From: Promethearchaeota archaeon
GTDB lineage: Archaea > Asgardarchaeota > Lokiarchaeia > Sigyniarchaeales > SOKP01
Assembly: GCA_048938445.1 (NCBI GenBank)
Contig: JBHLME010000086.1
Span: 1-19,105 of the forward strand
Length of the DNA stretch: 19,105 bases
Reading direction: 5' to 3'
Shown: piece by piece, positions 1,482-18,257 of the stretch
Layout: each line of letters opens with the position of its first letter
Numbering within the stretch: position 1 is the stretch's first letter
Position numbers and translations under genes: made by a program
Notes under the pieces: generated by a model
The model's input: only the letters and a program-made list of their open reading frames with translations
Database searches by the model: none
Told to the model about the DNA's origin: nothing

Positions 1482-2669
1482 ATGTTAATTGACAATTTCA
1501 TAGAAAAAGGGAAAAAATATTTATATACAGATGATCAAAAGAAAGTACAAAAAGAGCGTTTTAAAGCGGTAATAGAAACTACAAAACATCAAATTGAAAA
1601 ATGTGGTCTCTATCGTCAGCTTTGTAAGCAAAAAAATTTTGATCCTCGTAGAGACTTAAAATCAGTAGACGATATAAAGAATATACCGTACCTTACTTCA
1701 GCAAACTATAAAGGAAAAACGGGAACACCTAAGAAATTTTTATGTGTACCTGAGAGTGAAATTCAAGTCTGGCAGTCTTCAAGTGGGACATCTGGAGATC
1801 CATCTTTAATAGGTAAAGATAAAATTAACCTTCAAAGATATCTAAAAGTACTTAATTTTAGTTATGCAGAGGTTTTGAATTTAGCCCATTTTGATTGGAC
1901 CCTATTTTTCACCCCTCGACCTCAAAAGCTTTACACGATAGAAGATAAAATAACTGACCCCATTCGTAGCATGCTTTATGTGATGATTCTTACAAACAAG
2001 GCACCTTTGGAAAATAGAATTTATGCTCTAAAAATGGCTGATGAAGAATCAATGAAAAAAGGAAAACTCTTTGATATTGATAGCGAAGGAACACTTAGTT
2101 TTTTAAACGCAAATCCTTCAGAAAAAGGTAAAGGATGGATAAGTGGTTCTATTCCTTTATTGTATTCATTTTTCTCGGAAATATATAAAAAAACGGGACA
2201 AACATTTGAATGTGGTGAAGATTCAGTTGTAGTAGTTGGTGGAGGATGGAAGTCTTTTTCTGGTGAACAGGTCCCACCAGAGAAATTCCGAGATACATTA
2301 TCTAAATCACTAGGAATACCGCAGAAAAATATCCGAGATTCATATAATTTCTCTGAAACGGATTGTATGAATCCAGAATGTGAATATCATAATAAACATG
2401 TTCTACCATGGCAAGATATTATTATTAGGGATGTTGAAACCCTAGAGCCAGTAGAAATGGGGGAAACTGGATTAGTAAATGTAATCAATCCTATAGCTTA
2501 TAGTTATGCGGGCGTGTCGATACTTCAAGACGATATTGCTAAAATTACAATGGAAGATAATTGTTCATGTGGTAGAAGAGGCAAAATTATTGAAATCATT
2601 GGCAGAGCTCAAGGTGCAGAAGGAAAGGGATGCGGAGTCCAATTAGCTGGAGAAACTGATAATAATTAA
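1482..2669 (+). CDS. luxE: LuxE-family acyl-protein synthetase
   Basis: SSGTSG nucleotide-binding motif, GGGWK, 'YNFSE', 'QDD', 'CSCGRRG', and C-terminal 'GRAQGAEGKGCG' carrying the acylation cysteine typical of LuxE. Lies directly upstream of a luxC-like gene. Confidence 0.9.
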   Translation: MLIDNFIEKGKKYLYTDDQKKVQKERFKAVIETTKHQIEKCGLYRQLCKQKNFDPRRDLKSVDDIKNIPYLTSANYKGKTGTPKKFLCVPESEIQVWQSSSGTSGDPSLIGKDKINLQRYLKVLNFSYAEVLNLAHFDWTLFFTPRPQKLYTIEDKITDPIRSMLYVMILTNKAPLENRIYALKMADEESMKKGKLFDIDSEGTLSFLNANPSEKGKGWISGSIPLLYSFFSEIYKKTGQTFECGEDSVVVVGGGWKSFSGEQVPPEKFRDTLSKSLGIPQKNIRDSYNFSETDCMNPECEYHNKHVLPWQDIIIRDVETLEPVEMGETGLVNVINPIAYSYAGVSILQDDIAKITMEDNCSCGRRGKIIEIIGRAQGAEGKGCGVQLAGETDNN

Positions 2670-2750
2670 ATTGTAAATCAGAATTATTGAAAGATTTTTT
2701 TATTTTTAAATATTTTTTTTACTTTATTGAATAATTATATGATGGGGATT

Positions 2751-6474: not shown

Positions 6475-8148
6475 ATGTATGATAAAGATTATTTAGCAAA
6501 GATTAAAGAGGAAAAAGAGAAATGGGAATCACATAATCAAAATTCAAAAGAACGAGATGTTAATTTTGTTACTGATTCAGAAATTCCCATAAAACGATTG
6601 TATACACCATTAGATGTTAAAAGTAATTATTTAGAAAAGATAGGTTTTCCAGGGGTTCCTCCTTATACGAGAGGAGTATATCCAACAATGTATAGAGGGC
6701 GATTATGGACTTATAGGTTATTCAGTGGACATGGTACTCCGGAAGAAACCAATTTGAGATGGAAATTCTTGTATGAACAGGGTGAAACGGGTTTTTCCGC
6801 CGCTGTAGACTCTTTAACATTCAATGGAATAGATCCTACTAATAAAGATGCTGCTCCTGAAGTAGGTACATCAGGTGTCCCTTTATATTGTATTGATAGC
6901 TTATTTGCTCTTACAGAAAATATTCCAATTGATAAAGTAAGTGTTGCTCTAGTTGTAGAACCATTTACAAGTGCTCCCGTGTGTGCAATGTATTATAATA
7001 TGGCTCAAATACGAGGATATGATATTAAAACGCTAATGGGAACCACTCAAAATGATATTCTCACGATGACGGTGGGGTATATCCCCTATAAGAATTGTCC
7101 TCCCAATCACTTATTAAGATTAGCATGCGACCTTATTGAGTGGACGGTTCCAATGAAAAATGTTCCCAGGTGGCATCCAATTAATTTTACTGGTTATAAT
7201 TATCGTGAAGGTGGAATAAGTGCCATTCAAGAATTAGGTTTTGTATTTGCAAGTGCTTGTTCTCACATTGATAATCTCATAGAAAGAGGGTGGAAAATAG
7301 ATGATTTTGTCAACAGGCTTGCATTTCATTTAGCTGCTCATAAAGATTTCTTTGAAGAAATAGCTAAATACAGGGCTGCAAGAAGAATCTGGGCAAAATT
7401 GATGAAAGATAGATATGAATGTCAAGATCCTCGTTCTCAAGAATTTAGGTTTCACGTGCAAACTGCAGGTAGTTCATTAACTGCTCAAACGCCAAAAATT
7501 AATATCGTGAGGACAGCAATTCAAGCTTTGGAAGCAAATTTAGGAGGGTGCCAATCACTACATACAAACTCCTATGACGAGGCTATTTGCTTACCATCTG
7601 AAGAAGCTGCTCTCATTGCTTTAAGAACTCAGCAACTAATCGCAGATGAGACAAGAATTACAAATACAGTTGATCCCTTAGCGGGTTCTTATTATGTAGA
7701 ATGGCTTACGGATGAGATGGAAGATAGAGTGTGGAAATACCTTGATAAAATTGAAAAAGTTGGTTCAATAGATAAAACATTATCATCGGGCTGGTTATAC
7801 AAGGAAATGAGAGACGCATTCCATAAAAGACGTAAAAAAATTGAAAGTGGCGAAGAGATAATGCTAGGAGTAAATAAATATGAAGTGCCTTATGATGACG
7901 TTACTGATGTATTTCGAACAAATAAAGAAGCCATAGGTATCGAAGTGAAAAGAATTCAAAAATTAAAAGAACGGAGAGATAATGCTAAAGTAGAGAAATT
8001 TCTTGATAAATTAAGAAATGTTTGTGAAAAGGAGGAAAATGTAATGCCTATAATGATGGAAATTACAAAAGAGGGTGCCACGATTGGTGAAATATGTGAT
8101 ATTTACCGAGAAATATATGGCATATGGGAACCACCATTGGCCATTTGA
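6475..8148 (+). CDS. AdoCbl-dependent acyl-CoA mutase, large (substrate-binding) subunit, methylmalonyl-CoA mutase family; substrate probably not methylmalonyl-CoA
   Basis: 'GFPGVPPYTRGVYPTMYRGRLWT', 'GTTQNDIL', 'FFEEIAKYRAARRIW', 'FHVQTAGSSLT', 'SLHTNSYDEA', 'DPLAGSYYVEWLT', 'GVNKY'. No B12-binding domain in this chain. Confidence 0.93.
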   Translation: MYDKDYLAKIKEEKEKWESHNQNSKERDVNFVTDSEIPIKRLYTPLDVKSNYLEKIGFPGVPPYTRGVYPTMYRGRLWTYRLFSGHGTPEETNLRWKFLYEQGETGFSAAVDSLTFNGIDPTNKDAAPEVGTSGVPLYCIDSLFALTENIPIDKVSVALVVEPFTSAPVCAMYYNMAQIRGYDIKTLMGTTQNDILTMTVGYIPYKNCPPNHLLRLACDLIEWTVPMKNVPRWHPINFTGYNYREGGISAIQELGFVFASACSHIDNLIERGWKIDDFVNRLAFHLAAHKDFFEEIAKYRAARRIWAKLMKDRYECQDPRSQEFRFHVQTAGSSLTAQTPKINIVRTAIQALEANLGGCQSLHTNSYDEAICLPSEEAALIALRTQQLIADETRITNTVDPLAGSYYVEWLTDEMEDRVWKYLDKIEKVGSIDKTLSSGWLYKEMRDAFHKRRKKIESGEEIMLGVNKYEVPYDDVTDVFRTNKEAIGIEVKRIQKLKERRDNAKVEKFLDKLRNVCEKEENVMPIMMEITKEGATIGEICDIYREIYGIWEPPLAI

Positions 8149-8166
8149 TTTATCGGGGTGATAATA

Positions 8167-8562
8167 TTGGTTGATAAAAAAATTCGTGTATTAATGTCAA
8201 AACCAGGTATCGATGGACACTGGCGAGGTGGTATTGTTGTTTCAAGAGCCCTTAGAGATGCGGGTATGGAACTCATATTTGGAGGGTTTCAAAATGTAGA
8301 ACAAATCGTAGAATCTGCCATCCAAGAGGATGTGGATGTCATTGGTCTAAGCATACATTCAGGTGCACATTTTGCTTACACACAACAAGTTATTGATTTA
8401 TTAAAAGAGAAGGGCGTTTATGAAAACATAATTATTATCTTAGGTGGCGTGATTCCAGCAAGAGATTTTGCAGAATTGAAAAAAATGGGTGTTGCGAATG
8501 TATACGGTCCGGGGGCAATGGTAAATGATATTGTGAACTTCATAAGGGATAATGTGAAATAA
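8167..8562 (+). CDS. Acyl-CoA mutase small subunit (cobalamin-binding domain)
   Basis: 'KPGIDGHWRG' (DxHxxG), 'GLSIHSGAH', 'GGVIP', 'YGPG'. Immediately follows the large subunit. Start placed at TTG 8167 because GGGGTGA (8155-8161) looks like the Shine-Dalgarno; the track uses GTG 8158. Confidence 0.92.
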   Translation: MVDKKIRVLMSKPGIDGHWRGGIVVSRALRDAGMELIFGGFQNVEQIVESAIQEDVDVIGLSIHSGAHFAYTQQVIDLLKEKGVYENIIIILGGVIPARDFAELKKMGVANVYGPGAMVNDIVNFIRDNVK

Positions 8563-8574
8563 TGAAATTTATTT

Positions 8575-8622
8575 ATCTTAACCTCTAAGGTTCAATCTTA
8601 ACATAAACCTAGAATTATTAAC
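8575..8622. repeat. Three short repeats at exact 20-bp period (ATCTTAAC, ATCTTAAC, TTATTAAC)
   Basis: Copies at 8575-8582, 8595-8602 and 8615-8622; internal inverted repeat AACCT-cta-AGGTT at 8580-8592. Confidence 0.45.
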
Positions 8623-8706
8623 ACATTTTTAATCATAAACTTTTTACAAATTTTTATTAAAGAATTCTAAGATTATTCTATTAAGAAACTTGGAAGTGAT
8701 TTCAGA

Positions 8707-9084
8707 ATGTCAAAAAATGACATTGAATTTAATAAAAATGCTTTAGATGAATCCGAGAAGTATTATAAATTATTGCATTTATCATCAGATCAGCGGAGGA
8801 AAATCAGACTCGTATCAAAATTAGCAACGAATTTCATTCCAATAAGTGAATATGCAATGGCAGGTTTTGCTTATAGAGCAATTCAGGAATATCAAGTTGA
8901 TAATAAAATAGAAATGATTCAATTTGAAACAATGTCCGCGAGTGATAAACTTAAAATGTTTTCTAACCTATTAGAAAGAATTCGAAAAATGCTTTTAAAA
9001 GCCATTGTTACCCCAGATCAAACAGACCTTCTTGATAAAGCCGTAAAAGAGGCATACGAGTTCTATAAACACAATTTAATTTAG
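8707..9084 (+). CDS. Hypothetical all-alpha protein, 125 aa
   Basis: Clean ORF with ATG, SD-like GGAAGTG at 8691-8697, protein-like composition; no family recognised. Confidence 0.75.
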   Translation: MSKNDIEFNKNALDESEKYYKLLHLSSDQRRKIRLVSKLATNFIPISEYAMAGFAYRAIQEYQVDNKIEMIQFETMSASDKLKMFSNLLERIRKMLLKAIVTPDQTDLLDKAVKEAYEFYKHNLI

Positions 9085-9116
9085 TCGTTATATTTCATTG
9101 AAATTGTTTATAGAAG

Positions 9117-9137
9117 ACATTTTTCGACGAAAATGTA
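9117..9137. terminator. Imperfect inverted repeat downstream of the 125-aa gene (possible terminator or operator)
   Basis: ACATTTTTCG-A-CGAAAATGT with a one-base bulge. Confidence 0.3.
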
Positions 9138-9304
9138 GTTTTAATATTTATGTAATACAACTATATATTTTTAAATTAAAAGAATAAATTTATATTGTTA
9201 TTCGTTACACTTATTCCATTGTAGGAACAAAAAAAAAAAATTCCATTAAAAATTTTCATAAATGATAAAAATCTCAAGATTCAATCGAGGTGTAATATAT
9301 TTCA

Positions 9305-9826
9305 ATGAATCCTACTATAAAATGTCCCGTTTGCGGAAGTAAATTAGAAAAAATGACAATGAGTCATATAAAATCTAAGAAACATGAAGAAGCTTTAGAG
9401 AATGCCAAAATCAAAAATTCTGAAGATCCTGCATTAAAATTATTAAAATTACCAGAAATAAATACAGAAAACTTACAATACAAGTCTGAAGATGACATGA
9501 AATTGGAAGTACCTTTAGTTCCAGAACCTCCAAAAAGAAAAAAGCTTGAATTAAATTCTGCTGAAATGCCCGTCGATCTTAGTGCAATGAAACGTGCTGA
9601 AAAAGCAGGAAAAAAGGCAATTTTAGTGAATTGTGAAAGGTGTAATGGTGTAATTTTCGTACCTGTACCTCCCGAGATGGTTTTAAATTCGGAATTACCC
9701 GTCGTACCAATAACATACGTCCATTATAATCCAGAAAGGAAAGACAAGCATGGTATTACAATATACCTCGATCATGATTTTGATATTCGTAGACAAAGAT
9801 TATCTGATATTATTTTTCAAGAATAA
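9305..9826 (+). CDS. Protein with two putative zinc sites: N-terminal C2H2 finger and C-terminal CxxC..H..H module
   Basis: 'CPVCGSKLEKMTMSHIKSKKH'; Pro/Lys/Glu-rich linker; 'VNCERC...ITYVH...KHGITIYLDHDFDIRR'. SD GAGGTG at 9287-9292. Confidence 0.75.
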   Translation: MNPTIKCPVCGSKLEKMTMSHIKSKKHEEALENAKIKNSEDPALKLLKLPEINTENLQYKSEDDMKLEVPLVPEPPKRKKLELNSAEMPVDLSAMKRAEKAGKKAILVNCERCNGVIFVPVPPEMVLNSELPVVPITYVHYNPERKDKHGITIYLDHDFDIRRQRLSDIIFQE

Positions 9827-9902
9827 TAATATGATAAGATAAATATCATTAAACTAAAAATTTATTTTTTAAAAAATAAAATTGAAAAATAAAAAAGACA
9901 TG

Positions 9903-9928
9903 TACTATTTCTCTATATAGAATACTAT
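9903..9928. promoter_or_regulatory. TACTAT-N14-TACTAT direct repeat enclosing the palindrome TCTATATAGA, upstream of meaB
   Basis: TACTAT at 9903-9908 and 9923-9928; TCTATATAGA at 9912-9921. Confidence 0.4.
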
Positions 9929-9962
9929 ATTTGAAAAATGTGTAAATCGGTGCTACGTTTAA

Positions 9963-10928
9963 TTGAAGAGAAACTATAAAGTTAATGACTTGATTCTACA
10001 ATTTAAAAGAAAAGATAAAATTGCTCTTGCTAGATTAATTTCATTGATTGAAAATGAGCCTGAAAGGGCATCTGAAATTTTCAAGCATTTTGAAAACAAT
10101 AAGAATGACTCTTACATAATTGGAATAACAGGTTCTCCCGGGGTGGGAAAAAGCACCCTTGTTGGCTCAATTGTCAAGAAATTATTAAAGGAAAATAAAA
10201 CTATAGGAGTTATATCCGTAGATCCTACCTCCCCTTTTAGTGGAGGTGCTTTTTTAGGTGATAGAGTGAGGATGACCGAGATTTCTTTACATCCTAACTT
10301 ATTCATGCGGAGTTTAGCATCTAGAGGTTCTAAAGGAGGGCTTTCTCGAGCCGTATTTGATATAATCATGTTATATGAAGCCTTTGGGATGGACTTAATT
10401 CTCATTGAAACAGTTGGAGCGGGACAAAGTGAGTTTGAAATTTATAATTTAGCTCATACAGTTGTCGTGGTTCTTGTTCCGGGGTATGGCGATGCAATAC
10501 AGATGCAAAAAGCAGGGATCATTGAAATAGGAGATGTCTATGATGTTAATAAAAAGGATCTAGGTGGAGAAGATATCGCCGTACAAATTGAAATGATGCT
10601 TGATGATTCTACTCTTCAAGGGGGATGGCGTCCTCCTGTATCGATGACTAATTCGATTTCGGGTGAGGGTGTAGACAAATTAATACAACAAATATTCGAC
10701 CATAAGGAGCATTTGGAGTTATCGGGGATTTTAGAGAAAAAAAAAGAGCAACAGCTTTCTTATAAGATAAGAGAATTATTGTTTTATAAAATTGATAAGG
10801 TATTAGAGAGCCTTATTAGTCAAAAAGAAATTCATGAGATTCACGCAAAAGTAATTGATAATAAGTTCCAAGTATATGAAGCAATTCACGATTTATTTAG
10901 CAACGTAAAATTTGAACGAAAAAGGTAA
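9963..10928 (+). CDS. meaB: MeaB/ArgK family G3E GTPase, acyl-CoA mutase chaperone
   Basis: 'ALARLISLIEN', Walker A 'GSPGVGKST', 'VDPTSPFSGGAFLGDRVRM', 'ETVGAGQSE', 'GDAIQMQKAG', 'NKKD'; close to the mutase genes. Confidence 0.95.
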   Translation: MKRNYKVNDLILQFKRKDKIALARLISLIENEPERASEIFKHFENNKNDSYIIGITGSPGVGKSTLVGSIVKKLLKENKTIGVISVDPTSPFSGGAFLGDRVRMTEISLHPNLFMRSLASRGSKGGLSRAVFDIIMLYEAFGMDLILIETVGAGQSEFEIYNLAHTVVVVLVPGYGDAIQMQKAGIIEIGDVYDVNKKDLGGEDIAVQIEMMLDDSTLQGGWRPPVSMTNSISGEGVDKLIQQIFDHKEHLELSGILEKKKEQQLSYKIRELLFYKIDKVLESLISQKEIHEIHAKVIDNKFQVYEAIHDLFSNVKFERKR

Positions 10929-11097: not shown

Positions 11098-12249
11098 ATG
11101 AATTATATATGGGACACGATCGCAGATGCTGTTTCTAAAGAGGATGGACTGAGAGACGTGTATCCAATTTTTGAAAAAACGAAAATAGATGAAAATGGAT
11201 TCACGCATTATTATTTTTGCAAGATAATGTTTAAAAATCCTCATTTTGTCATTCCTGATGAATCATTTCTTTTATTTGAGAAATTTTTAGATGGAGGTTC
11301 AAGAGAATATCCATCAGATGGTAATATACCTACTGATTTAGTAGCTGCCGAAACTAGAAAAATTTTGAAAAGCATTGTAAAGATATCAAAAGATCCAAAT
11401 TCCCCTTTCTATGAGGATTCACTTGATGTGTTAAGAAATGGTAAATTTTCATTAATTAGAGGAACGATGAAACTATATTTGGGAAAATATACTACGAGAG
11501 ATTGGAGAAGGAAAAGATTTACCGATGATATTGATTTCTGGATATATAAAGTCCCTTTATGGGAACACGTGTTAAAGAAAAATGGATGGATAAAGAATAA
11601 AAAAACGCGAGAGTGGGAAAAATCTGTTTTTTGGCACAATCTTGCAACTCATGAAGATGAAACTCACATTCTTATAGCTTCTAATGATACTAATCAATTA
11701 TTGGACTTTGGTGGCGGTAGTTTTCTTGATGGTTCAAGCTTAAAAAGCATTTTCCAAAAAAAAATAAAAAGAGGACATGAAGTAGATCTTAGTGATATAA
11801 TCAATGTTGCTATGATTTTTAACAAGGCAGAAGGGCATTCTACTGAGGAATGGAACAATGCGTGGCAAGCATTTGAAGAGGCTACAAATACAAGAAGTAA
11901 AAGGATAACTTCTAACATTATAAGTTTATGTAGATACGCATATGCAATATCAGATTATCTAGAAAAAGTTGGCCAAGCTCTAATTAAATACCATAATCAT
12001 ATTTTTGATAAATCACGTTATCCAAACGAAAAAATTGTTAGAACTTGTCAATACTCCATTCATTGGAAAAAACATCTTAAGAGACATGGATTTGACATAA
12101 CTCGAGAGATGTTGCATAATTTTGTATTTAAACAGGGATATATTAAGATTTATTATGCAAGAAATTTGAAGCATTTTGCTGCAAAATTATTAAAACTATT
12201 AAACTCTAAGAATGAACATCTTAAAGTTGTTTTTGAAATTATTGACTAA
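11098..12249 (+). CDS. Hypothetical protein with a putative Pol-beta-like (AbiEii-like) nucleotidyltransferase core
   Basis: 'LIRGTMKLYL...RKRFTDDIDFW' resembles hhGG..h...RxTxDhD; 'KKIKRGHEVDLSDI' resembles K...R..D..Dh. The ORF is secure, the function tentative. Confidence 0.5.
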   Translation: MNYIWDTIADAVSKEDGLRDVYPIFEKTKIDENGFTHYYFCKIMFKNPHFVIPDESFLLFEKFLDGGSREYPSDGNIPTDLVAAETRKILKSIVKISKDPNSPFYEDSLDVLRNGKFSLIRGTMKLYLGKYTTRDWRRKRFTDDIDFWIYKVPLWEHVLKKNGWIKNKKTREWEKSVFWHNLATHEDETHILIASNDTNQLLDFGGGSFLDGSSLKSIFQKKIKRGHEVDLSDIINVAMIFNKAEGHSTEEWNNAWQAFEEATNTRSKRITSNIISLCRYAYAISDYLEKVGQALIKYHNHIFDKSRYPNEKIVRTCQYSIHWKKHLKRHGFDITREMLHNFVFKQGYIKIYYARNLKHFAAKLLKLLNSKNEHLKVVFEIID

Positions 12250-12297: not shown

Positions 12298-14103
12298 TCA
12301 ATTACTTGCCATTGCGTCAAATGTATTTTTCATAGATTTTCCAGATTCCCATTCATTTTTTAGTATAAATTTTTGAATTAACTCATTTGGATTTTTTGGT
12401 AAATCTTTGTTAAATTCAATATATCTAGGAACCATAAAATATGCTAGATTTCGTTTTAAATAATTATGAAAATCTTTAGGAGTGATTGAAGACCCATTTT
12501 GTATTACAGCACAAATTTTTAATTCTTTTTTATCTGTATCATGGTCTTTAACTTCAAATACAGCGCTTTCTACTATGAGTGGATGGGAATTAGCAACAAG
12601 TTCGATATCTATTGCAAAAAAGATCTCTTCTCCTCGGCTAATCATGTCTGATTTCCTTCCGAGGTAATATAAAAAACCTTCATGGTCCGTATATCCGAAA
12701 TCACCGGTATATACCCATCGATCTTCTCCTTTTCGTGTAACAGTTTCTTCTTGTAAATTATAATATTCAAGTTCAAAAGGAAGTCTTGTTCTTGCACAAA
12801 TTTCACCCATATTATCTCGTCCAGGAGGTGATTCTTTTCCTTCAAAATCAACAATTTTAATCTCAACTCCTCGTGCGGGTTTTCCAACAGATCCTAGTTT
12901 TCCTCCTTTTGAACCTACACTATTAATTGTAAATCCGATAGCTTCAACTAAAGCCCACATTTCGATGATTTGAATCCCAAATCTTCTTTCAAAAGTCTCC
13001 CAATTTTTTTTTTCCACGCCAGCACCAAGGGCATACTTAATTGAGTGTTTTCTATCTAAAGTAGAGGGTGGTTGATTTACAAGTGCAGTTAAGAGCGCTG
13101 CATAATAACAAAAACCTTCAGGTTTATATTTTTCAATATCCTTCCAAAACGTTGAAACATCAGAAAATTCTGCAATTATTACCGATCCGTTATAAAACAT
13201 GATTGGAATTATCAGAAAATATCTTTGTAATCCTTGGAATAAGGGTAATGGGCAATAAAATTTATTTATTCTCGTACTAAATCCTAATTCTTCTAATTGT
13301 CTTCCTACACTGATTCCTGATAAAGTATAATAATTTCTATACAGAACTCCCTTTGGTTTTCCTGTAGTTCCAGAAGTATAAGCTATTTCAAGAGGATGTA
13401 AACTATTTATATCAAGCTCAGGATTCTCAATGTTATCTGAGAAGATTTCTTTAAACTTAGCACATCTCTCATTATATTCATAATCAGATGGAGCATTTCG
13501 AATAAAAATTTTTTTAATATCTGGTAGATGCTCGAAAATATCTTCTATATCTCTATAATATTCATAATCAATAATTAAAATCTCTGAATTGCTATTTCTT
13601 AATATGAATTCCTTCAGTTCTTTTTTAAAAGCATAACTTACTGGTACAAACACGCTACCAGTTTTTGCCACACCAAACCAACAAAAGATTACTTCTGGAC
13701 AAGTTGGCAATAAAACAGAGATGTTTGGATTTTTTAATCTTAATTTTTTACTTAGCTTTAAAATTCCATTTGCAATCCGGTTAGATATTATATTTGTTTC
13801 ATAATATGAATAGATATCATCTTGGTAATAAATAAATGGTTTATCTTTATTTATAATTGCTTTACTTTCTATAACTTTGGCAAGTGTAGCATCTTCAATA
13901 TCATATAATTTTGTTATTTCACTAAGATCATATATTCTCCTAATCTCTAAGTGTTCACCTTTTAATTCAATAACAACTTCTTCCTTATCTCTAAAAGGAA
14001 AGTCATCATCTTTTGCTATCTTACTAGGGATATAGACCCAATAACTATCATAACCACGATTTCCTGATTTTTTTTTTGAAATCCTACCTTTTCCTGTTTT
14101 CAT
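12298..14103 (-). CDS. AbrB/MazE/SpoVT-like DNA-binding domain fused to a CaiC-like AMP-binding acyl-CoA ligase domain
   Basis: N-terminal ~58 aa 'GRISKKKSGNRGYDSYWVYIPSKIAKDDDFPFRDKEEVVIELKGEHLEIRR' has the swapped-hairpin pattern. Ligase motifs: 'YTSGTTGKPKG', 'GSVGKP', 'GEIC', 'YTGD', 'YLGRKSD', 'LAYFMVPRYIEF'. Confidence 0.85.
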   Translation of the reverse strand: MKTGKGRISKKKSGNRGYDSYWVYIPSKIAKDDDFPFRDKEEVVIELKGEHLEIRRIYDLSEITKLYDIEDATLAKVIESKAIINKDKPFIYYQDDIYSYYETNIISNRIANGILKLSKKLRLKNPNISVLLPTCPEVIFCWFGVAKTGSVFVPVSYAFKKELKEFILRNSNSEILIIDYEYYRDIEDIFEHLPDIKKIFIRNAPSDYEYNERCAKFKEIFSDNIENPELDINSLHPLEIAYTSGTTGKPKGVLYRNYYTLSGISVGRQLEELGFSTRINKFYCPLPLFQGLQRYFLIIPIMFYNGSVIIAEFSDVSTFWKDIEKYKPEGFCYYAALLTALVNQPPSTLDRKHSIKYALGAGVEKKNWETFERRFGIQIIEMWALVEAIGFTINSVGSKGGKLGSVGKPARGVEIKIVDFEGKESPPGRDNMGEICARTRLPFELEYYNLQEETVTRKGEDRWVYTGDFGYTDHEGFLYYLGRKSDMISRGEEIFFAIDIELVANSHPLIVESAVFEVKDHDTDKKELKICAVIQNGSSITPKDFHNYLKRNLAYFMVPRYIEFNKDLPKNPNELIQKFILKNEWESGKSMKNTFDAMASN

Positions 14104-14126
14104 GATAATTAAAATTTATATATCAA

Positions 14127-14205
14127 TACTATTGTAATTATATAATTACTATAGTAAAAAAAAGGTTACTATTTTTTGTCCTTACTATTAATTAATTTAT
14201 AGTAA
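14127..14205. promoter_or_regulatory. Operator-like array upstream of the AbrB-ligase gene
   Basis: TACTAT at 14127, 14147, 14167 (20-bp period) and 14183. Perfect palindromes GTAATTATATAATTAC (14134-14149) and TTACTATAGTAA (14146-14157). Inverted repeat TTACTAT-N10-ATAGTAA (14182-14205). Confidence 0.65.
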
Positions 14206-16197
14206 ATTTATATACTCTTCTTTTATTAGAGGAAATCTATCAAGATCATAATGAGGAAAATAAAGTGAAAATGTATATTCTTTTTGAAATAATGGTGAAG
14301 AAGCAATTTCTCGATACTTAATCTCATGTGCGATTTTATTTGCAAGATTTCTTTGTTCATAATCTTTTATAAATAATTGTGCTCCTTTTCCAGCTGCATT
14401 ACCTATTTGAAATATGTGATCTTTATTAACTTCAGGGAATAAACCTATGAAGGCAGCATTTTCTTTATTGATATAAGTTCCAAAACCACCTGCAAGGATG
14501 ATTTGTTCAAGATTTTCCCTTGTTGTTTCCTCTGATTCAAGGAGTAGATTTGCTGCAGATAAGAATGCTCCCTTTGCTAATTGAACTTGATTAATATCTT
14601 TTTGAGAAATAGTAATCTCGTTTATTTTTTTCTCATCATTGTTAATTTGAAACCTTTCATCATCCCATTCTGCTTTATATACAATATAATGATATCCATC
14701 TTCTTTTTTTATAATTCGACGATTATTTACTATCTGTTCTGATTTGATATTAAATTTTCCAGCACGAGTTATGATATTTGATTTTAACATTTCTGCTATG
14801 ATGTCAATTAACCCCGAACCACATAATCCTAATGGTGATACCTTTCCTATTATTTCTATTGAGGGTTCTAATGAACTTCTATCAATTATAACTGATTCTA
14901 TTGCACCCTCAGAAGCACGCATACCATTTGAAATATGAGCACCCTCCAATGCTGAACCTGCAGCGCATGAACCTGCAACTAATCCTTCTTTATTTCCTAA
15001 AACAAGCTCACCATTCGTACCAATATCAATCAATAAAGAATATTTATCAAATGTATTGATTTTAGACGATATAACACATCCAATCGTGTCAGTTCCTACA
15101 TACCCTGCAATTACTGGTGGAGAATATACGTTCACATTTGAGTTACAATTAATTCCCAAAACATTTGCACTGATATTGATTGGAGCTTTAAATACAGGGA
15201 CATAAGGCGATAAAGATAAATATTCCGGATTCATACCAAAAACCATATGATGCATTCCAGTATTACCTACAATAGAAATATCTTTTACAGATGCTATGGG
15301 AACATTAGCTTTATCACAACAATCCTTAAGTATTTGATTAATAGCATTAATAACTAATTCCTTAGCTCTATCTATTGCGTGATTTTTCACGATATAAGTA
15401 ATTCTTGAAATAATGTCTTCACCAATAGCTACTTGAGGATTAAGCATAGCAGAGATTGCGGCTATTTCACCTGATTTTATATACATTAAATATCCAACAA
15501 TTGTAGTAGTACCAATGTCAATAGCTAATCCAAAAATCTTATCTGTTCTATCTCCAGCTTCAATATCAAAAAGTGACCAAGAACCGTTAAATGAGATATT
15601 TCTAAAAAAAGCTGTAATCAGACCATCTTCTTTTCTCATCATTATTGAGAGATTAGTACAGATATTATATAATAAATTATCTACGTATAGATTAGTGCTA
15701 TTTTCCTTAAAATTAAAATTTGTATTTCTTTCAATCATACTCTCAATTAGACAAGATAAATCATTTTTTGGATTCTCCAAATCAGCAGGGATTATTTTAC
15801 ATAATTTTGAAGTAATAGTTGGTTGAACTTTATTCGAATCTTTAATTCCTAAATGTTCCAAATCAGCATCAACTAAAATTCTATATCCTTTTGGCATTAA
15901 TGAGTCCGTAAGATATACACGTAAATTTCCTAAAATTTTAGCTTGACATGCCAACCTGTATCCCTCTGATATTTTTTGTTCATCTAAGACTTTCTTTTCT
16001 TGTTCTGACAGTTCTGAAATTTTAGGGTTGGGATCTACCACCCGAATCAAACATTTTCCACATGTACCTTTACCTGCACATAATGCACCAACGGGAATAT
16101 TTAATGCTAAAAGTGATTCATAAACAGTTAAACCATCTAAAATATTTATTCTCTTAGATATAGGTTCTAAAATTAGCGTATGTCTTTTATTTTCCAT
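14197..16197 (-). CDS. RACo-type reductive activator of corrinoid proteins (N-terminal [2Fe-2S] ferredoxin + ASKHA ATPase, DUF4445 family)
   Basis: 'CAGKGTCGKC...RLACQ', 'AIDIGTTT', 'NPQVAIGEDIISRI', 'VGNTGMHH', 'DIGTNGE', 'GLCGSG', 'QLAKGA', 'LAGGFG', 'GNAA'; adjacent to a corrinoid protein. Confidence 0.93.
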   Translation of the reverse strand: MENKRHTLILEPISKRINILDGLTVYESLLALNIPVGALCAGKGTCGKCLIRVVDPNPKISELSEQEKKVLDEQKISEGYRLACQAKILGNLRVYLTDSLMPKGYRILVDADLEHLGIKDSNKVQPTITSKLCKIIPADLENPKNDLSCLIESMIERNTNFNFKENSTNLYVDNLLYNICTNLSIMMRKEDGLITAFFRNISFNGSWSLFDIEAGDRTDKIFGLAIDIGTTTIVGYLMYIKSGEIAAISAMLNPQVAIGEDIISRITYIVKNHAIDRAKELVINAINQILKDCCDKANVPIASVKDISIVGNTGMHHMVFGMNPEYLSLSPYVPVFKAPINISANVLGINCNSNVNVYSPPVIAGYVGTDTIGCVISSKINTFDKYSLLIDIGTNGELVLGNKEGLVAGSCAAGSALEGAHISNGMRASEGAIESVIIDRSSLEPSIEIIGKVSPLGLCGSGLIDIIAEMLKSNIITRAGKFNIKSEQIVNNRRIIKKEDGYHYIVYKAEWDDERFQINNDEKKINEITISQKDINQVQLAKGAFLSAANLLLESEETTRENLEQIILAGGFGTYINKENAAFIGLFPEVNKDHIFQIGNAAGKGAQLFIKDYEQRNLANKIAHEIKYREIASSPLFQKEYTFSLYFPHYDLDRFPLIKEEYINLL

Positions 16198-16305
16198 TTA
16201 TATACACTTTAAAGAATATATTTTATTATCTAACTTACTTTTAAAATTCTGAACATTATTTCTATGATTTAAACAAAAAAAATAGGTAAAAATTAAATTT
16301 TCAAA

Positions 16306-16962
16306 TTAAGATCTTAACCATTTATCGATAATTTCAGCACCTTGCAATGCATCAACGGCATATGCATCTGCGTTAGTTTCTTCCATCATTTCTGCAGATG
16401 CTGCAGCTCCTCCTAAAATAACCTTCACCTTATTAGCTAAGTCTCCATTTTTTAATAGACTCATTGCTCTTTTTATTGCGGGTTCAGCAGAAGAAAGAAG
16501 ATAAGATATACCTACAACTTTTACGTCCTCTTTACAAGCAGCTTCTTTAAACTTTTCAGGTGGAATGTCCACTCCAAGGTCAATTATATCCATCCCATAG
16601 GACCTCATGATTGCAATTATTATACTTTTACCTAAATTATGAATATCTCCTTGGATCGTACCAATAACAACTTTTCCAGAGTAATTTCGAGATTCTGCTA
16701 ATTTTTTACGCTCATCTTCATCAATAGATACCAATTCTCCATCTAGAGCTTCTGCTGCTAAAATAAGCCCCATTTCTCCAGATTCTTCAAGACCTTTTAA
16801 AACTCCTTGCCTAATAATATCTACTGTTGAGATACCAGCTTGAATTGCTTGTTTTATTGTGAGTTTCATCGAATAAAAGTCAAGTGAATTTACAGCTTCA
16901 ACTATTTTCTTGATATGAATATCCTCCTCTTCAACTTCACTCTTTATTATTACTTTTTCCAT
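16306..16962 (-). CDS. Methyltransferase-type corrinoid protein (MtaC/MttC-like: helical cap + B12-binding domain)
   Basis: 'GKVVIGTIQGDIHNLGKSII' (DxHxxG), 'DLGVDIPPEKF', 'VGISYLL', 'VILGGAA', 'ADAYAVDA'. Confidence 0.92.
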   Translation of the reverse strand: MEKVIIKSEVEEEDIHIKKIVEAVNSLDFYSMKLTIKQAIQAGISTVDIIRQGVLKGLEESGEMGLILAAEALDGELVSIDEDERKKLAESRNYSGKVVIGTIQGDIHNLGKSIIIAIMRSYGMDIIDLGVDIPPEKFKEAACKEDVKVVGISYLLSSAEPAIKRAMSLLKNGDLANKVKVILGGAAASAEMMEETNADAYAVDALQGAEIIDKWLRS

Positions 16963-16972
16963 CGCAATAAAT

Positions 16973-16979
16973 ACCTCCT
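16973..16979 (-). promoter_or_regulatory. Shine-Dalgarno site of the corrinoid protein gene
   Basis: AGGAGGT on the minus strand, 10 nt upstream of ATG 16962. The 36-bp gap to the upstream gene suggests co-transcription. Confidence 0.75.
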
Positions 16980-16998
16980 AAAATATTGAAAAAAACTT

Positions 16999-17784
16999 TT
17001 AAACTACTAAAACAATACCATGCCAGCCAACATAAGGAACTCCTTTTTCTGAATGTTCAGGATTAATAACATATGGCGGTTTTTCTCCACATTTAAGAAT
17101 TGTAGCAAATACATCTACTCCACAAGCTTCTAATGCTGGTCTGGCTCTTAAATACTGCCGACACATCTCTCCTTCAAGTGCAGGACATGCTGGAAGTTTC
17201 TTTTGTTCCATTAAACCTTTAATGTATTCGGGAGATAGAAATCCACAGCCTAAACAAGGTCCACCTTTAAAACCCATCGCAAGATAATAACCTAAATAAG
17301 TTGCTTCCGCTTCGATTAATGAAACCATTTTATTTAACATGTCCACATCTCCATGAACTCCAGTTAAAATGCTTGGAAATATATGATTTTTTACGGGTGG
17401 ATAGACAGTAACTAAAATCGCATGTTTATAACAACTAACAATCTCTGTCATCTCTTCTGTAGTTGGAGAATGGGGAGGACAATTTATTGTCATTCCATAA
17501 CCAAAGCAGATTGGAATTCTACATTTCCATCTAACTCGCGGATCTATTACGATTTTATCAGTAGTTATTAACTTAGCATGACCAGTTGCATCTAATTTTG
17601 ATTCTTCAAGTACATTATTGATGAATTTATTTGATCGCTCAACGAGTTCGTTTATAACCTCCTCCTTATATTCCATTTGTATCGGAGAAGGAGGTCGATT
17701 TCTTTGTTTTGGTAATACCCTCCTCCATTTAAACGATATTTTTGACCATTCTTTATCTACTTCTGGTATATATTTCTGATCCAT
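16999..17784 (-). CDS. DUF2284-like cysteine-rich predicted metal-binding protein
   Basis: 'DPRVRWKCRIPICFGYGMTINCPPHSP', 'GGPCLGC', 'CPALEGEMCRQYLRARPALEACGVDV', C-terminal 'GIVLV'. Confidence 0.85.
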   Translation of the reverse strand: MDQKYIPEVDKEWSKISFKWRRVLPKQRNRPPSPIQMEYKEEVINELVERSNKFINNVLEESKLDATGHAKLITTDKIVIDPRVRWKCRIPICFGYGMTINCPPHSPTTEEMTEIVSCYKHAILVTVYPPVKNHIFPSILTGVHGDVDMLNKMVSLIEAEATYLGYYLAMGFKGGPCLGCGFLSPEYIKGLMEQKKLPACPALEGEMCRQYLRARPALEACGVDVFATILKCGEKPPYVINPEHSEKGVPYVGWHGIVLVV

Positions 17785-18257
17785 TTATTATTCACTCAGT
17801 TTCAACTTTTTTTTTACTTAGACATACATTTATTTATTAAAAGGTTATTTGAGTATTACTCCCGTAATCAACACTTTATGGTAGTAAAACGACTATAATT
17901 ATACTTTAAACAATTATAATTTATAAAATTTATTCTTTTTTTACTCTCGTAATAAATAATTTAGGGGTATACATTAAATAATTTTAATTATTTAAGATTT
18001 TTATTTCCTTATATTTAGATTTTAAAAGAATTAAAAACCGACTGATGTAAAGATTCTTATTTTAATTGTTAGCTAAAATTCAACTCAGATTATTATATAA
18101 CTACTAAAATATTCGACAATTTCTATGATACAAATACTCTATCAATTCTCTATATATTAATAAAACAACAATTCAAGAAGTGCACCTTAAACCTTTAAAT
18201 ACTGAACAAATTATTTTTAATTATTTACTAACCAAAAGACAATTGAAAGGACTTAAA

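What the first reader, a model, noticed from the sequence alone, without database searches (positions are those of the whole stretch)
12370..12960. The ligase domain looks catalytically crippled: A10 lysine replaced by Leu, A5 and A8 motifs degenerate, P-loop intact
Seen: the C-terminal motif reads LPKNPNELIQK (Leu575, codon TTA at 12379-12381) where adenylate-forming enzymes have PKTxxGKIxK/R. A5 reads MWALVE instead of YGxTE; A8 reads RKSDMISRGEEIF instead of RxxDxIxxGGENI. YTSGTTGKPKG and TGD are retained. TTA is two substitutions from AAA, so a single-base error is unlikely. Known: the A10 Lys is needed for the adenylation half-reaction and is the acetylation control site. Inference: a nucleotide- or ligand-binding pseudo-enzyme, consistent with a sensor role.
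Basis: partly seen in the sequence, partly recalled or inferred. Interest (0 to 1): 0.78.

Follow-up and report, generated by a model that had tools for sequence, protein, structure and literature searches.

The report
Ligase-derived sensor on an archaeal repressor
This Asgard-archaeal gene encodes an acyl-CoA-ligase-like protein that has lost key catalytic residues, carries a small DNA-binding-type domain at its front end and sits behind a conserved palindromic DNA site, so it most likely acts as a ligand-sensing gene regulator and no longer as an ordinary ligase.

Summary
The 601-aa product of 12298-14103 (-) is an ANL (AMP-binding) protein. Leu575 sits where the A10 lysine should be, and the A4 His, A5 Thr and A8 Lys/Gly are also replaced. 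The P-loop, A5 Glu, A7 Asp and A8 Arg are kept.

This is a family trait, not an error. In 112 fused Asgard homologues only 9 have K/R at that column, against 122 of 124 of the nearest unfused relatives. A tree suggests the fusion came first and the catalytic residues were then lost stepwise; the query keeps 0 of 4 diagnostic residues.

The N-terminal ~62 residues are the most conserved part of the protein. They are predicted as beta-beta-alpha-beta-beta, give weak but consistent AbrB/MazE/VapB fold matches, and are predicted to form an interdigitated dimer.

New here: an exact palindrome TTAC-N4-GTAA lies within 120 bp upstream of 22 of 30 family genes. In this window it also lies upstream of the conserved DUF2284-corrinoid protein-RACo operon.

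Best reading (about 0.55): an autoregulated AbrB-type transcription factor whose sensor domain is a decayed acyl-CoA ligase. Neither loss of catalysis nor DNA binding has been shown.

The parts
12298..14103 (-). Whole gene, 601 aa: N-terminal AbrB-like domain followed by an ANL (AMP-binding) domain
   Evidence: ORF and translation. Pfam AMP-binding covers residues 85-439 (E 5.7e-49) and AMP-binding_C covers 500-573 (E 1.7e-07). AF2 model: pLDDT 90.0, pTM 0.83.
13918..14103 (-). N-terminal domain (residues 1-62), beta-beta-alpha-beta-beta, AbrB/MazE/VapB-like
   Evidence: No Pfam hit at E<=10. Secondary structure. The top fold matches are VapB/MazE/AbrB/C56/SpoVT, all weak. hhalign against 27 Asgard PF04014 domains: probability 27%, E 6.6e-4. 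Predicted homodimer: score 0.54 against best control 0.00. It is the most conserved part of the protein.
13348..13380 (-). A3 P-loop YTSGTTGKPKG (residues 242-252), intact
   Evidence: Gly245 and Lys251 are present in 121 of 121 family sequences.
13234..13251 (-). A4 region PLPLFQ (residues 285-290); the canonical His is Gln290
   Evidence: unfused relatives have H in 120 of 124; fused have Q in 69 and H in 20 of 111.
12943..12960 (-). A5 MWALVE (residues 382-387): Thr replaced by Val386, Glu387 and Trp383 kept
   Evidence: Glu387 and Trp383 are present in 121 of 121 family sequences. Column 386 is T105/S12 of 127 in unfused sequences, and V61/T18/A15 of 121 in fused ones.
12700..12711 (-). 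A7 YTGD (residues 465-468), intact
   Evidence: Asp468 is present in 120 of 121.
12619..12657 (-). A8 RKSDMISRGEEIF (residues 483-495): Arg483 and Asp486 kept; Lys485, Arg489, Gly492 and Asn494 lost
   Evidence: unfused K485 107, R489 110, G492 122, N494 110 of 124. Fused G492 is 33 of 111.
12370..12402 (-). A10 LPKNPNELIQK (residues 568-578): Leu575 at the catalytic-lysine column, Lys578 three residues later
14146..14157 (.). Exact palindrome TTACTATAGTAA, 43-54 bp upstream of the gene's ATG (putative operator)
   Evidence: 3 exact sites in the window against 0.35 expected. An exact site lies within 120 bp upstream in 22 of 30 family genes.
14126..14137 (.). One-mismatch copy of the palindrome, 20 bp from the exact site
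   Evidence: On their own, one-mismatch sites are not enriched in the window (13 found against 10.7 expected).
17856..17867 (.). Exact palindrome TTACTCCCGTAA (as printed on the + strand), 72-83 bp upstream of the DUF2284 start; a one-mismatch copy lies at 17876-17887
   Evidence: At least one exact site lies upstream of DUF2284 in 9 of the 10 cases with that region available (the window and 8 of 9 orthologous loci).
17941..17952 (.). Exact palindrome TTACTCTCGTAA, distal site of the operon promoter region
14197..17784 (-). Upstream co-directional genes: DUF2284 (16999-17784), corrinoid protein (16306-16962), RACo-type reductive activase (14197-16197)
   Evidence: Pfam and NCBIfam. The same order and strand, ending in the ANL gene, is found in 10 orthologous loci.

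Best explanation
The protein is a one-component, autoregulated transcription factor of Asgard archaea. Its N-terminal ~62 residues form an AbrB/MazE-type interdigitated dimer. This dimer binds the palindrome TTAC-N4-GTAA, which is paired at about 20 bp spacing, in front of its own gene and in front of the adjacent DUF2284-corrinoid protein-RACo operon.

The remaining ~530 residues are an acyl-CoA-ligase (ANL) domain that has been converted into a sensor. It still binds ATP or another adenine nucleotide: the P-loop, A5 Glu, A7 Asp and A8 Arg are kept. It probably also binds a carboxylic-acid ligand. It has lost the residues that drive the two canonical half-reactions: the A10 Lys/Arg and A5 Thr for adenylation, and the A8 Lys/Gly and A4 His for CoA thioester formation. 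Ligand and nucleotide occupancy would change the ANL conformation and so change DNA binding.

What is shown: the residue losses, their family-wide and stepwise pattern, the conserved palindromes and the operon.

What is inferred: DNA binding by this protein, loss or near-loss of ligase activity, and the coupling between ligand and DNA binding. The ligand is unknown.
For: (1) Motif loss is real and family-wide. Column 575 reads L39 F27 E21 M7 K5 R4 plus 9 others in 112 fused sequences, against K67 R55 T2 in 124 unfused. Of the four diagnostic residues (H290, T/S386, G492, K/R575), fused sequences keep 0 in 56, 1 in 37, 2 in 11, 3 in 6 and 4 in 2 of 112. Unfused sequences keep 4 in 108, 3 in 15 and 2 in 1 of 124. 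The query keeps 0.

(2) Loss appears stepwise after the fusion. The fused clade is monophyletic (112 of 112, support 1.0). Its earliest branches keep 3-4 of the residues, and the crown clade of 59 that holds the query keeps 0-1.

(3) The nucleotide-binding residues are kept: Gly245, Lys251, Glu387 and Trp383 in 121 of 121, and Asp468 in 120 of 121.

(4) The C-terminal subdomain is relatively relaxed. The C/N identity ratio is 0.86-1.03 in fused sequences and 1.23-1.44 in unfused ones. The N-terminal small domain is the most conserved part.

(5) N-terminal domain:
- It is predicted as beta-beta-alpha-beta-beta.
- The Foldseek top rows are VapB/MazE/AbrB/C56/C68 (best E 0.33, TM 0.48).
- VIA-align lists 5itj Z 3.6, C56 3.4, VapB 3.1, AbrB 2.8 and SpoVT 2.8.
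- hhalign against Asgard PF04014 domains aligns the IP-containing strand in register (probability 27%, E 6.6e-4).
- Stand-alone homologues of 65-90 aa exist in other Asgard families.

(6) Predicted homodimer of the N-terminal domain. The score is 0.54 and the best of 3 controls is 0.00. The mark was reached by 20 of 30 proteins solved as pairs of one chain and by 1 of 23 solved as single chains. The runs agree in at least 98% of contacts and the partner pLDDT is at least 69. Because AbrB/MazE dimers have been solved, this pass may reflect likeness only.

(7) Operator-like sites:
- All 3 exact TTACNNNNGTAA sites in the window lie in the two intergenic regions of this operon (0.35 expected; 2 of 200 shuffles reach 3).
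- An exact site lies within 120 bp upstream of 22 of 30 family genes, across orthologue and paralogue groups and including the second fused gene of this genome.
- Of 53 sites in 31 loci (418,728 bp), 49 lie outside ORFs of >=150 aa.
- With ORF starts as called by my script, a site within 150 bp upstream is found for 17 of 27 family genes against 25 of 312 other ORFs (Fisher p 5e-11).
- The other genes carrying sites are conserved neighbours: DUF2284, a 171-aa protein and an SBP_bac_5 transporter protein.
- The centre of the palindrome varies and is often G/C-rich, so it is not simply a TATA box.
Against: - No assay exists: neither DNA binding nor absence of ligase activity has been shown.
- The N-terminal domain has no significant sequence match to AbrB/MazE. 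There are 0 Pfam families at E<=10 and 0 PDB sequences at E<=10 with a profile. All fold scores are weak (Z<=3.6, with MCE-domain rows interleaved).
- 8 of 30 family genes lack an exact site. About four of these (L015, L019, L023, L032) have a one-mismatch copy; L020, L038 and L040 have none.
- The palindrome is not enriched genome-wide: 103 sites against 192 expected under an i.i.d. model. Another factor could bind it.
- Intact P-loop, A5 Glu and A7 Asp are also what an active adenylating enzyme needs.
- The AF2 model fits adenylate-conformation structures best (rmsd 3.2-3.9 A against about 10.7 A for CoA-bound 4CL).
- Lys578 (K in 113 of 121) and a family-specific Arg256 (R101 and K6 of 111, where unfused sequences have P/S/T) could supply positive charge to the active site.
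- Neighbouring genes include CoA-transferase subunits and a thiolase, which would also suit a true CoA ligase.
- The sequences compared are related to one another, so the counts overstate independence.
Confidence: 0.55

Rival explanations
1. Bifunctional enzyme and repressor, in the manner of BirA (recalled from knowledge, not from a call). The ANL domain still carries out the adenylation step slowly. Because the CoA-transfer residues are gone, it holds the acyl-AMP, and this acyl-AMP acts as the co-repressor or inducer for the AbrB-like DNA-binding domain.
For: The P-loop, A5 Glu, A7 Asp and A8 Arg are conserved. The A8 Gly/Lys and A4 His, which serve CoA transfer, are lost. The AF2 model lies in the adenylate conformation. 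Basal fused members keep all four diagnostic residues, and the second fused gene of this genome (Arg at the A10 column) also has the palindrome upstream, so an enzyme-plus-regulator stage probably existed.
Against: The A10 basic residue and the A5 Thr, which serve adenylation, are also lost in the query's clade. Passages of the review PMC8388817 describe the A10 Lys as the key catalytic residue contacting the alpha-phosphate.
Confidence: 0.2
2. It is still a working acyl-CoA (or acyl-AMP) ligase with a non-canonical active site. Lys578, Arg256 or the Gly-rich 397-402 insertion compensates for the lost residues. The N-terminal domain only dimerises the enzyme or docks it onto partners, and the palindromes are bound by some other regulator.
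For: Strong purifying selection acts over the whole ANL domain (42-77% identity over 600 aa). There are many family-specific invariant residues around the active site: R256, N257, W383, N394, G397, S398, G400, G401. Lys578 is conserved. CoA-transferase, thiolase and enoyl-reductase-type genes lie nearby. An unfused ANL in the same genome also lacks the Lys (Phe at that column).
Against: Lys578 is equally conserved in relatives that still have K/R575, so it did not arise as a replacement. Both catalytic faces of the C-terminal subdomain (A8 and A10) are relaxed, and that subdomain evolves relatively faster than in unfused relatives. The palindrome travels with the gene across different genomic contexts, which is typical of autoregulation.
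Confidence: 0.2
3. It is a non-DNA-binding scaffold or accessory protein of the corrinoid system. The ANL-like body binds a nucleotide, and the VapB/MazE-like N-terminal domain mediates protein-protein contacts, for instance with the corrinoid protein or RACo.
For: The gene order DUF2284-corrinoid protein-RACo-ANL is strictly conserved in 10 loci.
Against: Paralogues with the same N-terminal domain and palindrome lie in unrelated contexts without corrinoid genes. The palindromes remain unexplained under this reading.
Confidence: 0.05

Closest known systems
CaiC-like / 'ATP-dependent acyl-CoA ligase' clade of the ANL superfamily (NCBIfam PRK06187, PRK06155, PRK08008)
   Same: They are the best sequence relatives. 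NCBIfam scores are 255, 241 and 232 bits, and unfused representatives reach 35% identity. They share the two-subdomain ANL fold, the P-loop, A5 Glu, A7 Asp, A8 Arg and a conserved Lys at the position of Lys578.
   Different: All scores are far below the curated cut-offs of 476, 722 and 651 bits. The unfused clade has K/R at A10 in 122 of 124, A4 His in 120 of 124 and A8 Gly in 122 of 124; the query has Leu, Gln and Glu. None of the 127 unfused representatives aligned begins with the 62-residue N-terminal domain.
SpoVT of Bacillus subtilis (AbrB-type N-terminal domain fused to a GAF sensor domain; architecture recalled, entry 2w1t listed)
   Same: The same logic applies: a swapped-hairpin DNA-binding dimer at the N-terminus followed by a ligand-binding domain in one polypeptide. 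SpoVT is among the structural matches to the N-terminal domain (Z 2.8, rmsd 5.5 A, 52 residues aligned).
   Different: The sensor here is an ANL ligase domain of about 530 aa, not a GAF domain. The sequence relationship to PF04014 is below significance. The lineage is archaeal.
BirA, biotin protein ligase and bio-operon repressor (recalled from knowledge, not tested here)
   Same: It is an adenylate-forming catalytic domain fused to an N-terminal DNA-binding domain, with regulation tied to nucleotide and acid binding.
   Different: BirA belongs to a different fold class with a winged-helix DNA-binding domain, and it is fully catalytic. Here the catalytic residues have decayed.
AbrB / MazE / VapB swapped-hairpin DNA-binding proteins
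   Same: They share the beta-beta-alpha-beta-beta order, a predicted interdigitated homodimer, a palindromic target in front of the protein's own gene, and the existence of stand-alone homologues of 65-90 aa.
   Different: No significant HMM match was found. The conserved signature, with invariant G14, Y18, W22, Y24, P26 and F35-P36-F37, is not covered by a Pfam model.

Membership tests
ANL superfamily (class I adenylate-forming enzymes) | Two-subdomain AMP-binding fold | tested here: met
   Pfam AMP-binding E 5.7e-49 and AMP-binding_C E 1.7e-07. Foldseek against solved ANL enzymes gives E about 1e-38 and TM up to 0.87, normalised by target length.
ANL superfamily (class I adenylate-forming enzymes) | A3 P-loop, (S/T)GD of A7, and the Arg of A8 (motifs as in Table 2 of PMC8388817) | tested here: met
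   YTSGTTGKPKG, YTGD and Arg483 are all present. They are conserved in the family.
ANL superfamily (class I adenylate-forming enzymes) | A10 motif Px4GK(psi)x(R/K) with the catalytic Lys, reported as fully conserved in 374 sequences (PMC6122825 passage) | tested here: not met
   The query reads P-K-N-P-N-E-L-I-Q-K. Glu574 and Leu575 replace the Gly-Lys pair. Only 9 of 112 fused sequences have K/R at this column.
ANL superfamily (class I adenylate-forming enzymes) | A8 motif Rx(D/K)x6G | tested here: not met
   Arg483 is present, but position 485 is Ser (unfused: K in 107 of 124) and position 492 is Glu (unfused: G in 122 of 124).
Acyl-CoA synthetase (function) | ATP-dependent formation of an acyl-CoA thioester | not testable with these tools
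   This needs ATP-PPi exchange and CoA-ligation assays.
NCBIfam equivalogs: CaiC (PRK08008), ATP-dependent acyl-CoA ligase (PRK06155), long-chain-fatty-acid-CoA ligase (PRK06187) | Score above the curated cut-off | tested here: not met
   231.6 against 651, 240.9 against 722, and 255.2 against 476 bits.
AbrB/MazE/SpoVT superfamily (Pfam PF04014) | Match to the family HMM | tested here: not met
   The first 90 residues give 0 Pfam families at E<=10. A stand-alone homologue reaches only E 0.11. hhalign against 27 Asgard PF04014 domains gives probability 27%, E 6.6e-4.
AbrB/MazE/SpoVT superfamily (Pfam PF04014) | Swapped-hairpin fold (beta-beta-alpha-beta-beta) forming an interdigitated dimer | tested here: inconclusive
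   The secondary-structure order fits. The top fold rows belong to this superfamily but are weak (E>=0.33; Z<=3.6). The dimer prediction passes: 0.54 against 0.00, with the mark reached by 20 of 30 solved pairs and 1 of 23 single chains.
Autoregulated one-component transcription factor | Conserved palindromic site in front of its own gene | tested here: met
   22 of 30 family genes have an exact TTAC-N4-GTAA within 120 bp upstream. The window has 3 sites against 0.35 expected.
Autoregulated one-component transcription factor | Sequence-specific DNA binding that responds to a ligand | not testable with these tools
   This needs EMSA or footprinting with and without ATP and candidate acids.

The most novel reading that the evidence does not exclude
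An Asgard-wide family of transcription regulators uses a fossilised acyl-CoA ligase as its ligand sensor. The family preserves, in living members, the whole path from enzyme (unfused), through enzyme plus DNA-binding domain (basal fused members with all catalytic residues), to pure sensor (the query's clade with none). In the query's orthologue group it switches a corrinoid-protein/RACo methyl-transfer module. In paralogue groups it switches an ABC uptake system. The trigger is probably a carboxylate, possibly a betaine-type or methoxylated acid, bound together with ATP or as a trapped acyl-adenylate.
Probability: 0.45. Interest if true: 0.8.

Novelty: new variant of a known kind. Interest (0 to 1): 0.72.

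Why it matters
Little is known about gene regulation in Asgard archaea, the closest prokaryotic relatives of eukaryotes. If this reading holds, several things follow:

- It defines a widespread and easily recognised regulator family, together with its DNA site (TTAC-N4-GTAA) and candidate target operons.
- It adds the ANL fold to the list of enzyme folds recruited as sensor domains.
- It offers a natural series for studying how an enzyme turns into a pseudoenzyme.
- In practical terms, these genes are currently annotated as 'AMP-binding protein', 'acyl-CoA ligase' or 'crotonobetaine/carnitine-CoA ligase'. They are therefore likely counted as fatty-acid or carnitine activation capacity in metabolic reconstructions, which may be wrong.
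- The nearest unfused clade uses Arg almost as often as Lys at A10, which is itself at odds with the 'fully conserved lysine' statement in the literature.

Tried and rejected
Sequencing error or decaying pseudogene: rejected. The gene is intact, and the same substitutions recur in more than 100 homologues at 42-77% identity.

Lys578 as a newly evolved replacement lysine: rejected as an evolutionary claim, because it is just as conserved in unfused relatives that keep K/R575.

Sequence-level identification of the N-terminal domain led nowhere:
- Pfam at E<=10 gave 0 families.
- A profile of 23 domains against PDB sequences gave 0 hits at E<=10.
- The ESM Atlas gave no usable hit.
- An HMM against six-frame ORFs of the genome found only the two fused genes; the next hit had E 0.22.

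Stand-alone homologues of the domain (8 loci) carry no TTAC-N4-GTAA upstream, so they neither support nor contradict the link between the site and the domain.

A genome-wide regulon could not be established. Of 103 sites, 53 are intergenic, in a genome whose crude coding fraction is 0.82. Some lie next to acyl-CoA-type genes: a 3-hydroxyacyl-CoA dehydrogenase, two HpaB/4-hydroxybutyryl-CoA-dehydratase-family genes, an NMO-type reductase and a binding protein. AT-rich intergenic DNA alone could give this picture, so it is only a lead.

One-mismatch sites are not enriched in the window (13 found against 10.7 expected).

The link to the nearby methylmalonyl-CoA-mutase/MeaB genes (6475-10928) was rejected as a conserved association. 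tblastn with the window's mutase and MeaB proteins found no match within +/-8 kb in the 30 related fused loci L013-L042; only one unfused relative, L048, matched.

Literature: six full-text searches returned no paper describing an AbrB-ANL fusion, an ANL sensor domain in a transcription factor, or this palindrome. I saw only search listings and abstracts, apart from passages of PMC8388817 and PMC6122825.

Full report
THE OBSERVATION.

The finding lies in a 601-codon gene on the minus strand, 12298-14103. Pfam assigns AMP-binding to residues 85-439 (E 5.7e-49) and AMP-binding_C to 500-573 (E 1.7e-07). Leu575 is TTA at 12379-12381 and Lys578 is AAA at 12370-12372.

phmmer alignments to solved oxalyl-CoA synthetases and 4-coumarate-CoA ligase place Glu574-Leu575 opposite the Gly-Lys pair of A10. 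Two MAFFT alignments with unfused relatives agree. According to passages of PMC8388817, A10 is Px4GK(psi)x(R/K), its Lys contacts the alpha-phosphate during adenylation, and it is the acetylation target. PMC6122825 calls this Lys fully conserved in 374 ANL sequences.

- In A5 only the Thr is lost (Val386). Glu387 and an aromatic residue (Trp383) remain.
- In A8, Arg483 and Asp486 remain, while Lys485, Arg489, Gly492 and Asn494 are lost.

The A4 His is also replaced, by Gln290.

A FAMILY, NOT AN ACCIDENT.

A word-index search returned 380 proteins. The best 120 are about 600 aa long and 42-77% identical, plus a few fragments, and they carry names from Lokiarchaeota/Promethearchaeota, Thor-, Hel-, Hod- and Hermodarchaeota. 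All full-length members carry the same conserved N-terminal ~70 residues.

In the 121-sequence alignment, Gly245, Lys251, Trp383, Glu387 and Gly482 are invariant, and Asp468 is present in 120 of 121. Column 575 is variable: its five commonest residues are L44, F29, E21, M7 and K6. Column 578 is K in 113.

An exhaustive HMMER search with the ANL part alone found 80,433 proteins at E<=1e-3. There is a sharp break between 8 fused-family representatives (39-56% identity) and unfused proteins of about 520-540 aa at 35% identity or less. One of the 8 (P0127, 544 aa) starts without the N-terminal domain and may be a truncated gene call.

FUSED AGAINST UNFUSED.

In 124 unfused representatives column 575 is K67, R55, T2. 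In 112 fused sequences it is L39, F27, E21, M7, K5, R4 and 9 others. Other canonical residues that are conserved in unfused sequences but lost in fused ones are His290 (120 of 124), Lys485 (107), Arg489 (110), Gly492 (122), Asn494 (110) and Thr571 (107). Thr/Ser386 is T105/S12 of 127 in unfused sequences and T18 of 121 in fused ones.

I then counted four diagnostic residues (H290, T/S386, G492, K/R575). Unfused sequences keep all four in 108 of 124. Fused sequences keep 0 in 56, 1 in 37, 2 in 11, 3 in 6 and 4 in 2 of 112. The query keeps 0.

Lys578 is shared by both groups (unfused K in 111 of 124), so it predates the loss.

The fused family also has its own conserved residues near the active site: Arg256 (R101 and K6 of 111, where unfused sequences have P/S/T), Asn257, Trp383, Asn394 and a Gly-rich insertion (G397, S398, G400, G401). 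This looks like remodelling and not simple decay.

In the window's own genome there are:
- one further fused paralogue (C105; 43% identity; Arg at the A10 column);
- at least ten unfused ANL genes, most of them with the canonical Gly-Lys;
- one unfused gene with Phe at that position.

ORDER OF EVENTS.

I built a FastTree (LG+gamma) of the ANL part from the 112 fused sequences and 40 of the 124 unfused ones as outgroup. The fused family is monophyletic (support 1.0). The earliest branches keep 3-4 diagnostic residues, for example H-S-G-R. Intermediate clades have lost only the A10 basic residue (H-T-G-F/M). The crown clade of 59, which includes the query, keeps 0-1. Some backbone supports are low (0.30-0.72), so this order is tentative. 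It nevertheless indicates fusion first and stepwise loss afterwards.

At matched divergence of the large subdomain, the C-terminal subdomain (which carries A8 and A10) is less conserved in fused than in unfused proteins: identity 0.387 against 0.513 in the 0.40-0.45 bin. The C/N ratio is 0.86-1.03 in fused proteins and 1.23-1.44 in unfused ones. The small N-terminal domain is the best conserved part of the fused proteins. The pairs compared are not phylogenetically independent.

THE N-TERMINAL DOMAIN.

There is no Pfam hit at E<=10, no PDB sequence hit with a 23-sequence profile and no Atlas hit. AF2 predicts beta-beta-alpha-beta-beta followed by a helix, both within the whole protein (pLDDT 90.0, pTM 0.83) and for the domain alone (pLDDT 69.6).

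Foldseek on the isolated domain found nothing at E<=0.001. However, the top rows are almost all VapB, MazE, AbrB and the archaeal plasmid proteins C56/C68 (best 5l6l_E, E 0.33, TM 0.48). VIA-align against 48,161 chains lists:
- 5itj, Z 3.6;
- C56, Z 3.4;
- VapB, Z 3.1;
- AbrB N-domain, Z 2.8;
- SpoVT, Z 2.8;
- MCE-domain rows of similar Z, interleaved with these.

hhalign against 27 bona fide PF04014 domains collected from Asgard genomes aligns 39 columns in the expected register (probability 27%, E 6.6e-4).

A two-copy complex prediction passes. The score is 0.54 and the best of 3 controls is 0.00. The mark was reached by 20 of 30 proteins solved as pairs of one chain and by 1 of 23 solved as single chains. 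The runs agree in at least 98% of contacts and the partner pLDDT is at least 69. The model shows 161-172 contacts, with pairing of strand 4 to strand 4', strand 2 to strand 2', and strand 3 to strand 1'. Because such dimers have been solved, this may show likeness only.

The domain occurs in 30 of 301 genomes sampled from the phylum. Most occurrences are in about 600-aa frames. It also occurs as stand-alone frames of 65-142 aa in other families of the phylum, one of them fused to DUF5678. Taken together, an AbrB/MazE-type fold is likely but not proven.

CONTEXT AND THE PALINDROME.

Upstream, on the same strand, lie DUF2284 (16999-17784), a corrinoid protein (16306-16962; B12-binding, MtgC/MtbC-like but below the cut-offs) and a RACo-type reductive activase (14197-16197). 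The order DUF2284-corrinoid protein-RACo-ANL recurs in 10 related loci whose ANL is 58-78% identical. In five of these it is preceded by two CoA-transferase subunits. It is absent from L019, L023 and the 40-57% paralogue loci. Those loci have their own conserved neighbours: a 171-aa protein without a family, an SBP_bac_5 binding protein with two permeases, a thiolase, an OYE-type reductase and a molybdopterin oxidoreductase.

Aligning the RACo-ANL spacers exposed a repeated palindrome, TTAC-N4-GTAA. Its distribution is as follows:
- The window has three exact copies: 14146-14157, 17856-17867 and 17941-17952. All three lie in the two intergenic regions of this operon. The chance expectation is 0.35, and 2 of 200 shuffles reach 3.
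- One-mismatch copies lie 20 bp from two of them, at 14126-14137 and 17876-17887.
- The whole genome has 103 copies against 192 expected under an i.i.d. model, so there is no general enrichment.
- The only other fused gene in the genome also has one, about 60-75 bp upstream depending on which start codon is taken.
- Across the window, that paralogue and 28 related loci with upstream sequence, 22 of 30 family genes have an exact copy within 120 bp of the start, mostly 31-50 bp upstream. L033 and L036 were left out because they have no upstream flank. About four more genes have a one-mismatch copy, and L020, L038 and L040 have none.
- In 31 loci (418,728 bp), 49 of 53 copies lie outside ORFs of >=150 aa.
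- With script-called ORF starts, a copy within 150 bp upstream is found for 17 of 27 family genes against 25 of 312 other ORFs (Fisher p 5e-11). The 25 are mainly DUF2284, the 171-aa gene and the transporter genes.
- The half-sites are fixed while the centre varies and is often G/C-rich, which fits a dimeric DNA-binding protein better than a TATA box.

A site that follows the gene through different neighbourhoods is the usual mark of autoregulation.

MECHANISM PROPOSED.

The most economical reading is an autoregulated AbrB-type regulator whose effector domain is a former acyl-CoA ligase. Nucleotide binding is probably retained. The residues that drive adenylation (A10 Lys/Arg, A5 Thr) and CoA transfer (A8 Lys/Gly, A4 His) have been lost in the query's clade.

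The AF2 model fits adenylate-conformation structures best (rmsd 3.2-3.9 A to the 4CL-ATP, MatB-ATP and luciferase-DLSA entries, against about 10.7 A for 4CL with AMP and CoA). This is a prediction, not evidence of activity.

Whether slow adenylation persists, as in a BirA-like trapped-adenylate model, cannot be decided here. The ligand is unknown. That the nearest sequence relatives are carnitine/crotonobetaine-type ligases, and that the corrinoid protein resembles glycine-betaine- and methylamine-specific ones (all below the cut-offs), is only a hint.

COMPARISON AND NOVELTY.

The protein is a structural member of the ANL superfamily, but it fails two defining motifs (A10, A8) and all curated equivalog cut-offs. 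It works most like SpoVT (an AbrB domain plus a sensor domain) and, conceptually, like BirA; both comparisons are recalled knowledge.

Six full-text searches found no description of such a fusion, of an ANL sensor domain, or of the palindrome.

I rate this a new variant of a known kind: an enzyme-derived sensor domain on a one-component regulator.

VERDICT.

Confidence in the regulator/sensor model is about 0.55, and interest is 0.72.

Noticed in passing
representatives P0131-P0272 (unfused relatives): In the nearest unfused ANL clade (CaiC/PRK06155-like), Arg stands at the A10 'catalytic lysine' column almost as often as Lys (55 against 67 of 124). A second Lys three residues later is conserved in 111 of 124. 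This contradicts the 'fully conserved lysine' statement in PMC6122825.
   Followed up: partly
G000 C141:7791-8870 (-) and C141:5923-7074 (-): An unfused ANL paralogue in the same genome has Gly-Phe in place of Gly-Lys at A10. A neighbouring ANL-like match contains 1 TGA and 2 TAG stops, so it may be a pseudogene or recoded.
   Followed up: no
window 1482-4457 (+): LuxE-like acyl-protein synthetase (E 1.1e-42) and LuxC-like acyl-CoA reductase (E 2.3e-74) lie side by side, preceded by a FIST-domain protein at 26-1258. This is an unusual pair for an Asgard archaeon.
   Followed up: no
window 6475-10928 (+): Methylmalonyl-CoA-mutase-type large subunit, B12-binding small subunit and MeaB GTPase, with two ORFs without any family in between (8707-9084 and 9305-9826). 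The cluster is not conserved next to the ANL gene in related loci.
   Followed up: partly
window 4480-6204 (-) and 11098-12249 (+): Two long ORFs (574 aa and 383 aa) have no Pfam hit. The 383-aa ORF also has no NCBIfam hit; the 574-aa ORF was not scanned against NCBIfam.
   Followed up: no
window 16999-17784 (-): The DUF2284 protein gives weak NCBIfam matches to selenoprotein families that contain this domain (ArsM/DUF2284 fusion E 1.2e-16; MbdU E 1.8e-13), both far below the cut-offs. Its role beside a corrinoid protein and RACo is unexplained.
   Followed up: no
L093-L100 (other Asgard families): Stand-alone homologues (65-142 aa) of the N-terminal domain exist. One carries a C-terminal DUF5678 (E 5.5e-10). 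The domain family has no Pfam model.
   Followed up: partly
L025, L028-L031, L035, L039, L042 (paralogue group): A conserved 171-aa protein without any family lies directly downstream of the fused gene. It has its own TTAC-N4-GTAA site, next to an SBP_bac_5/permease transporter that is also preceded by the site.
   Followed up: partly
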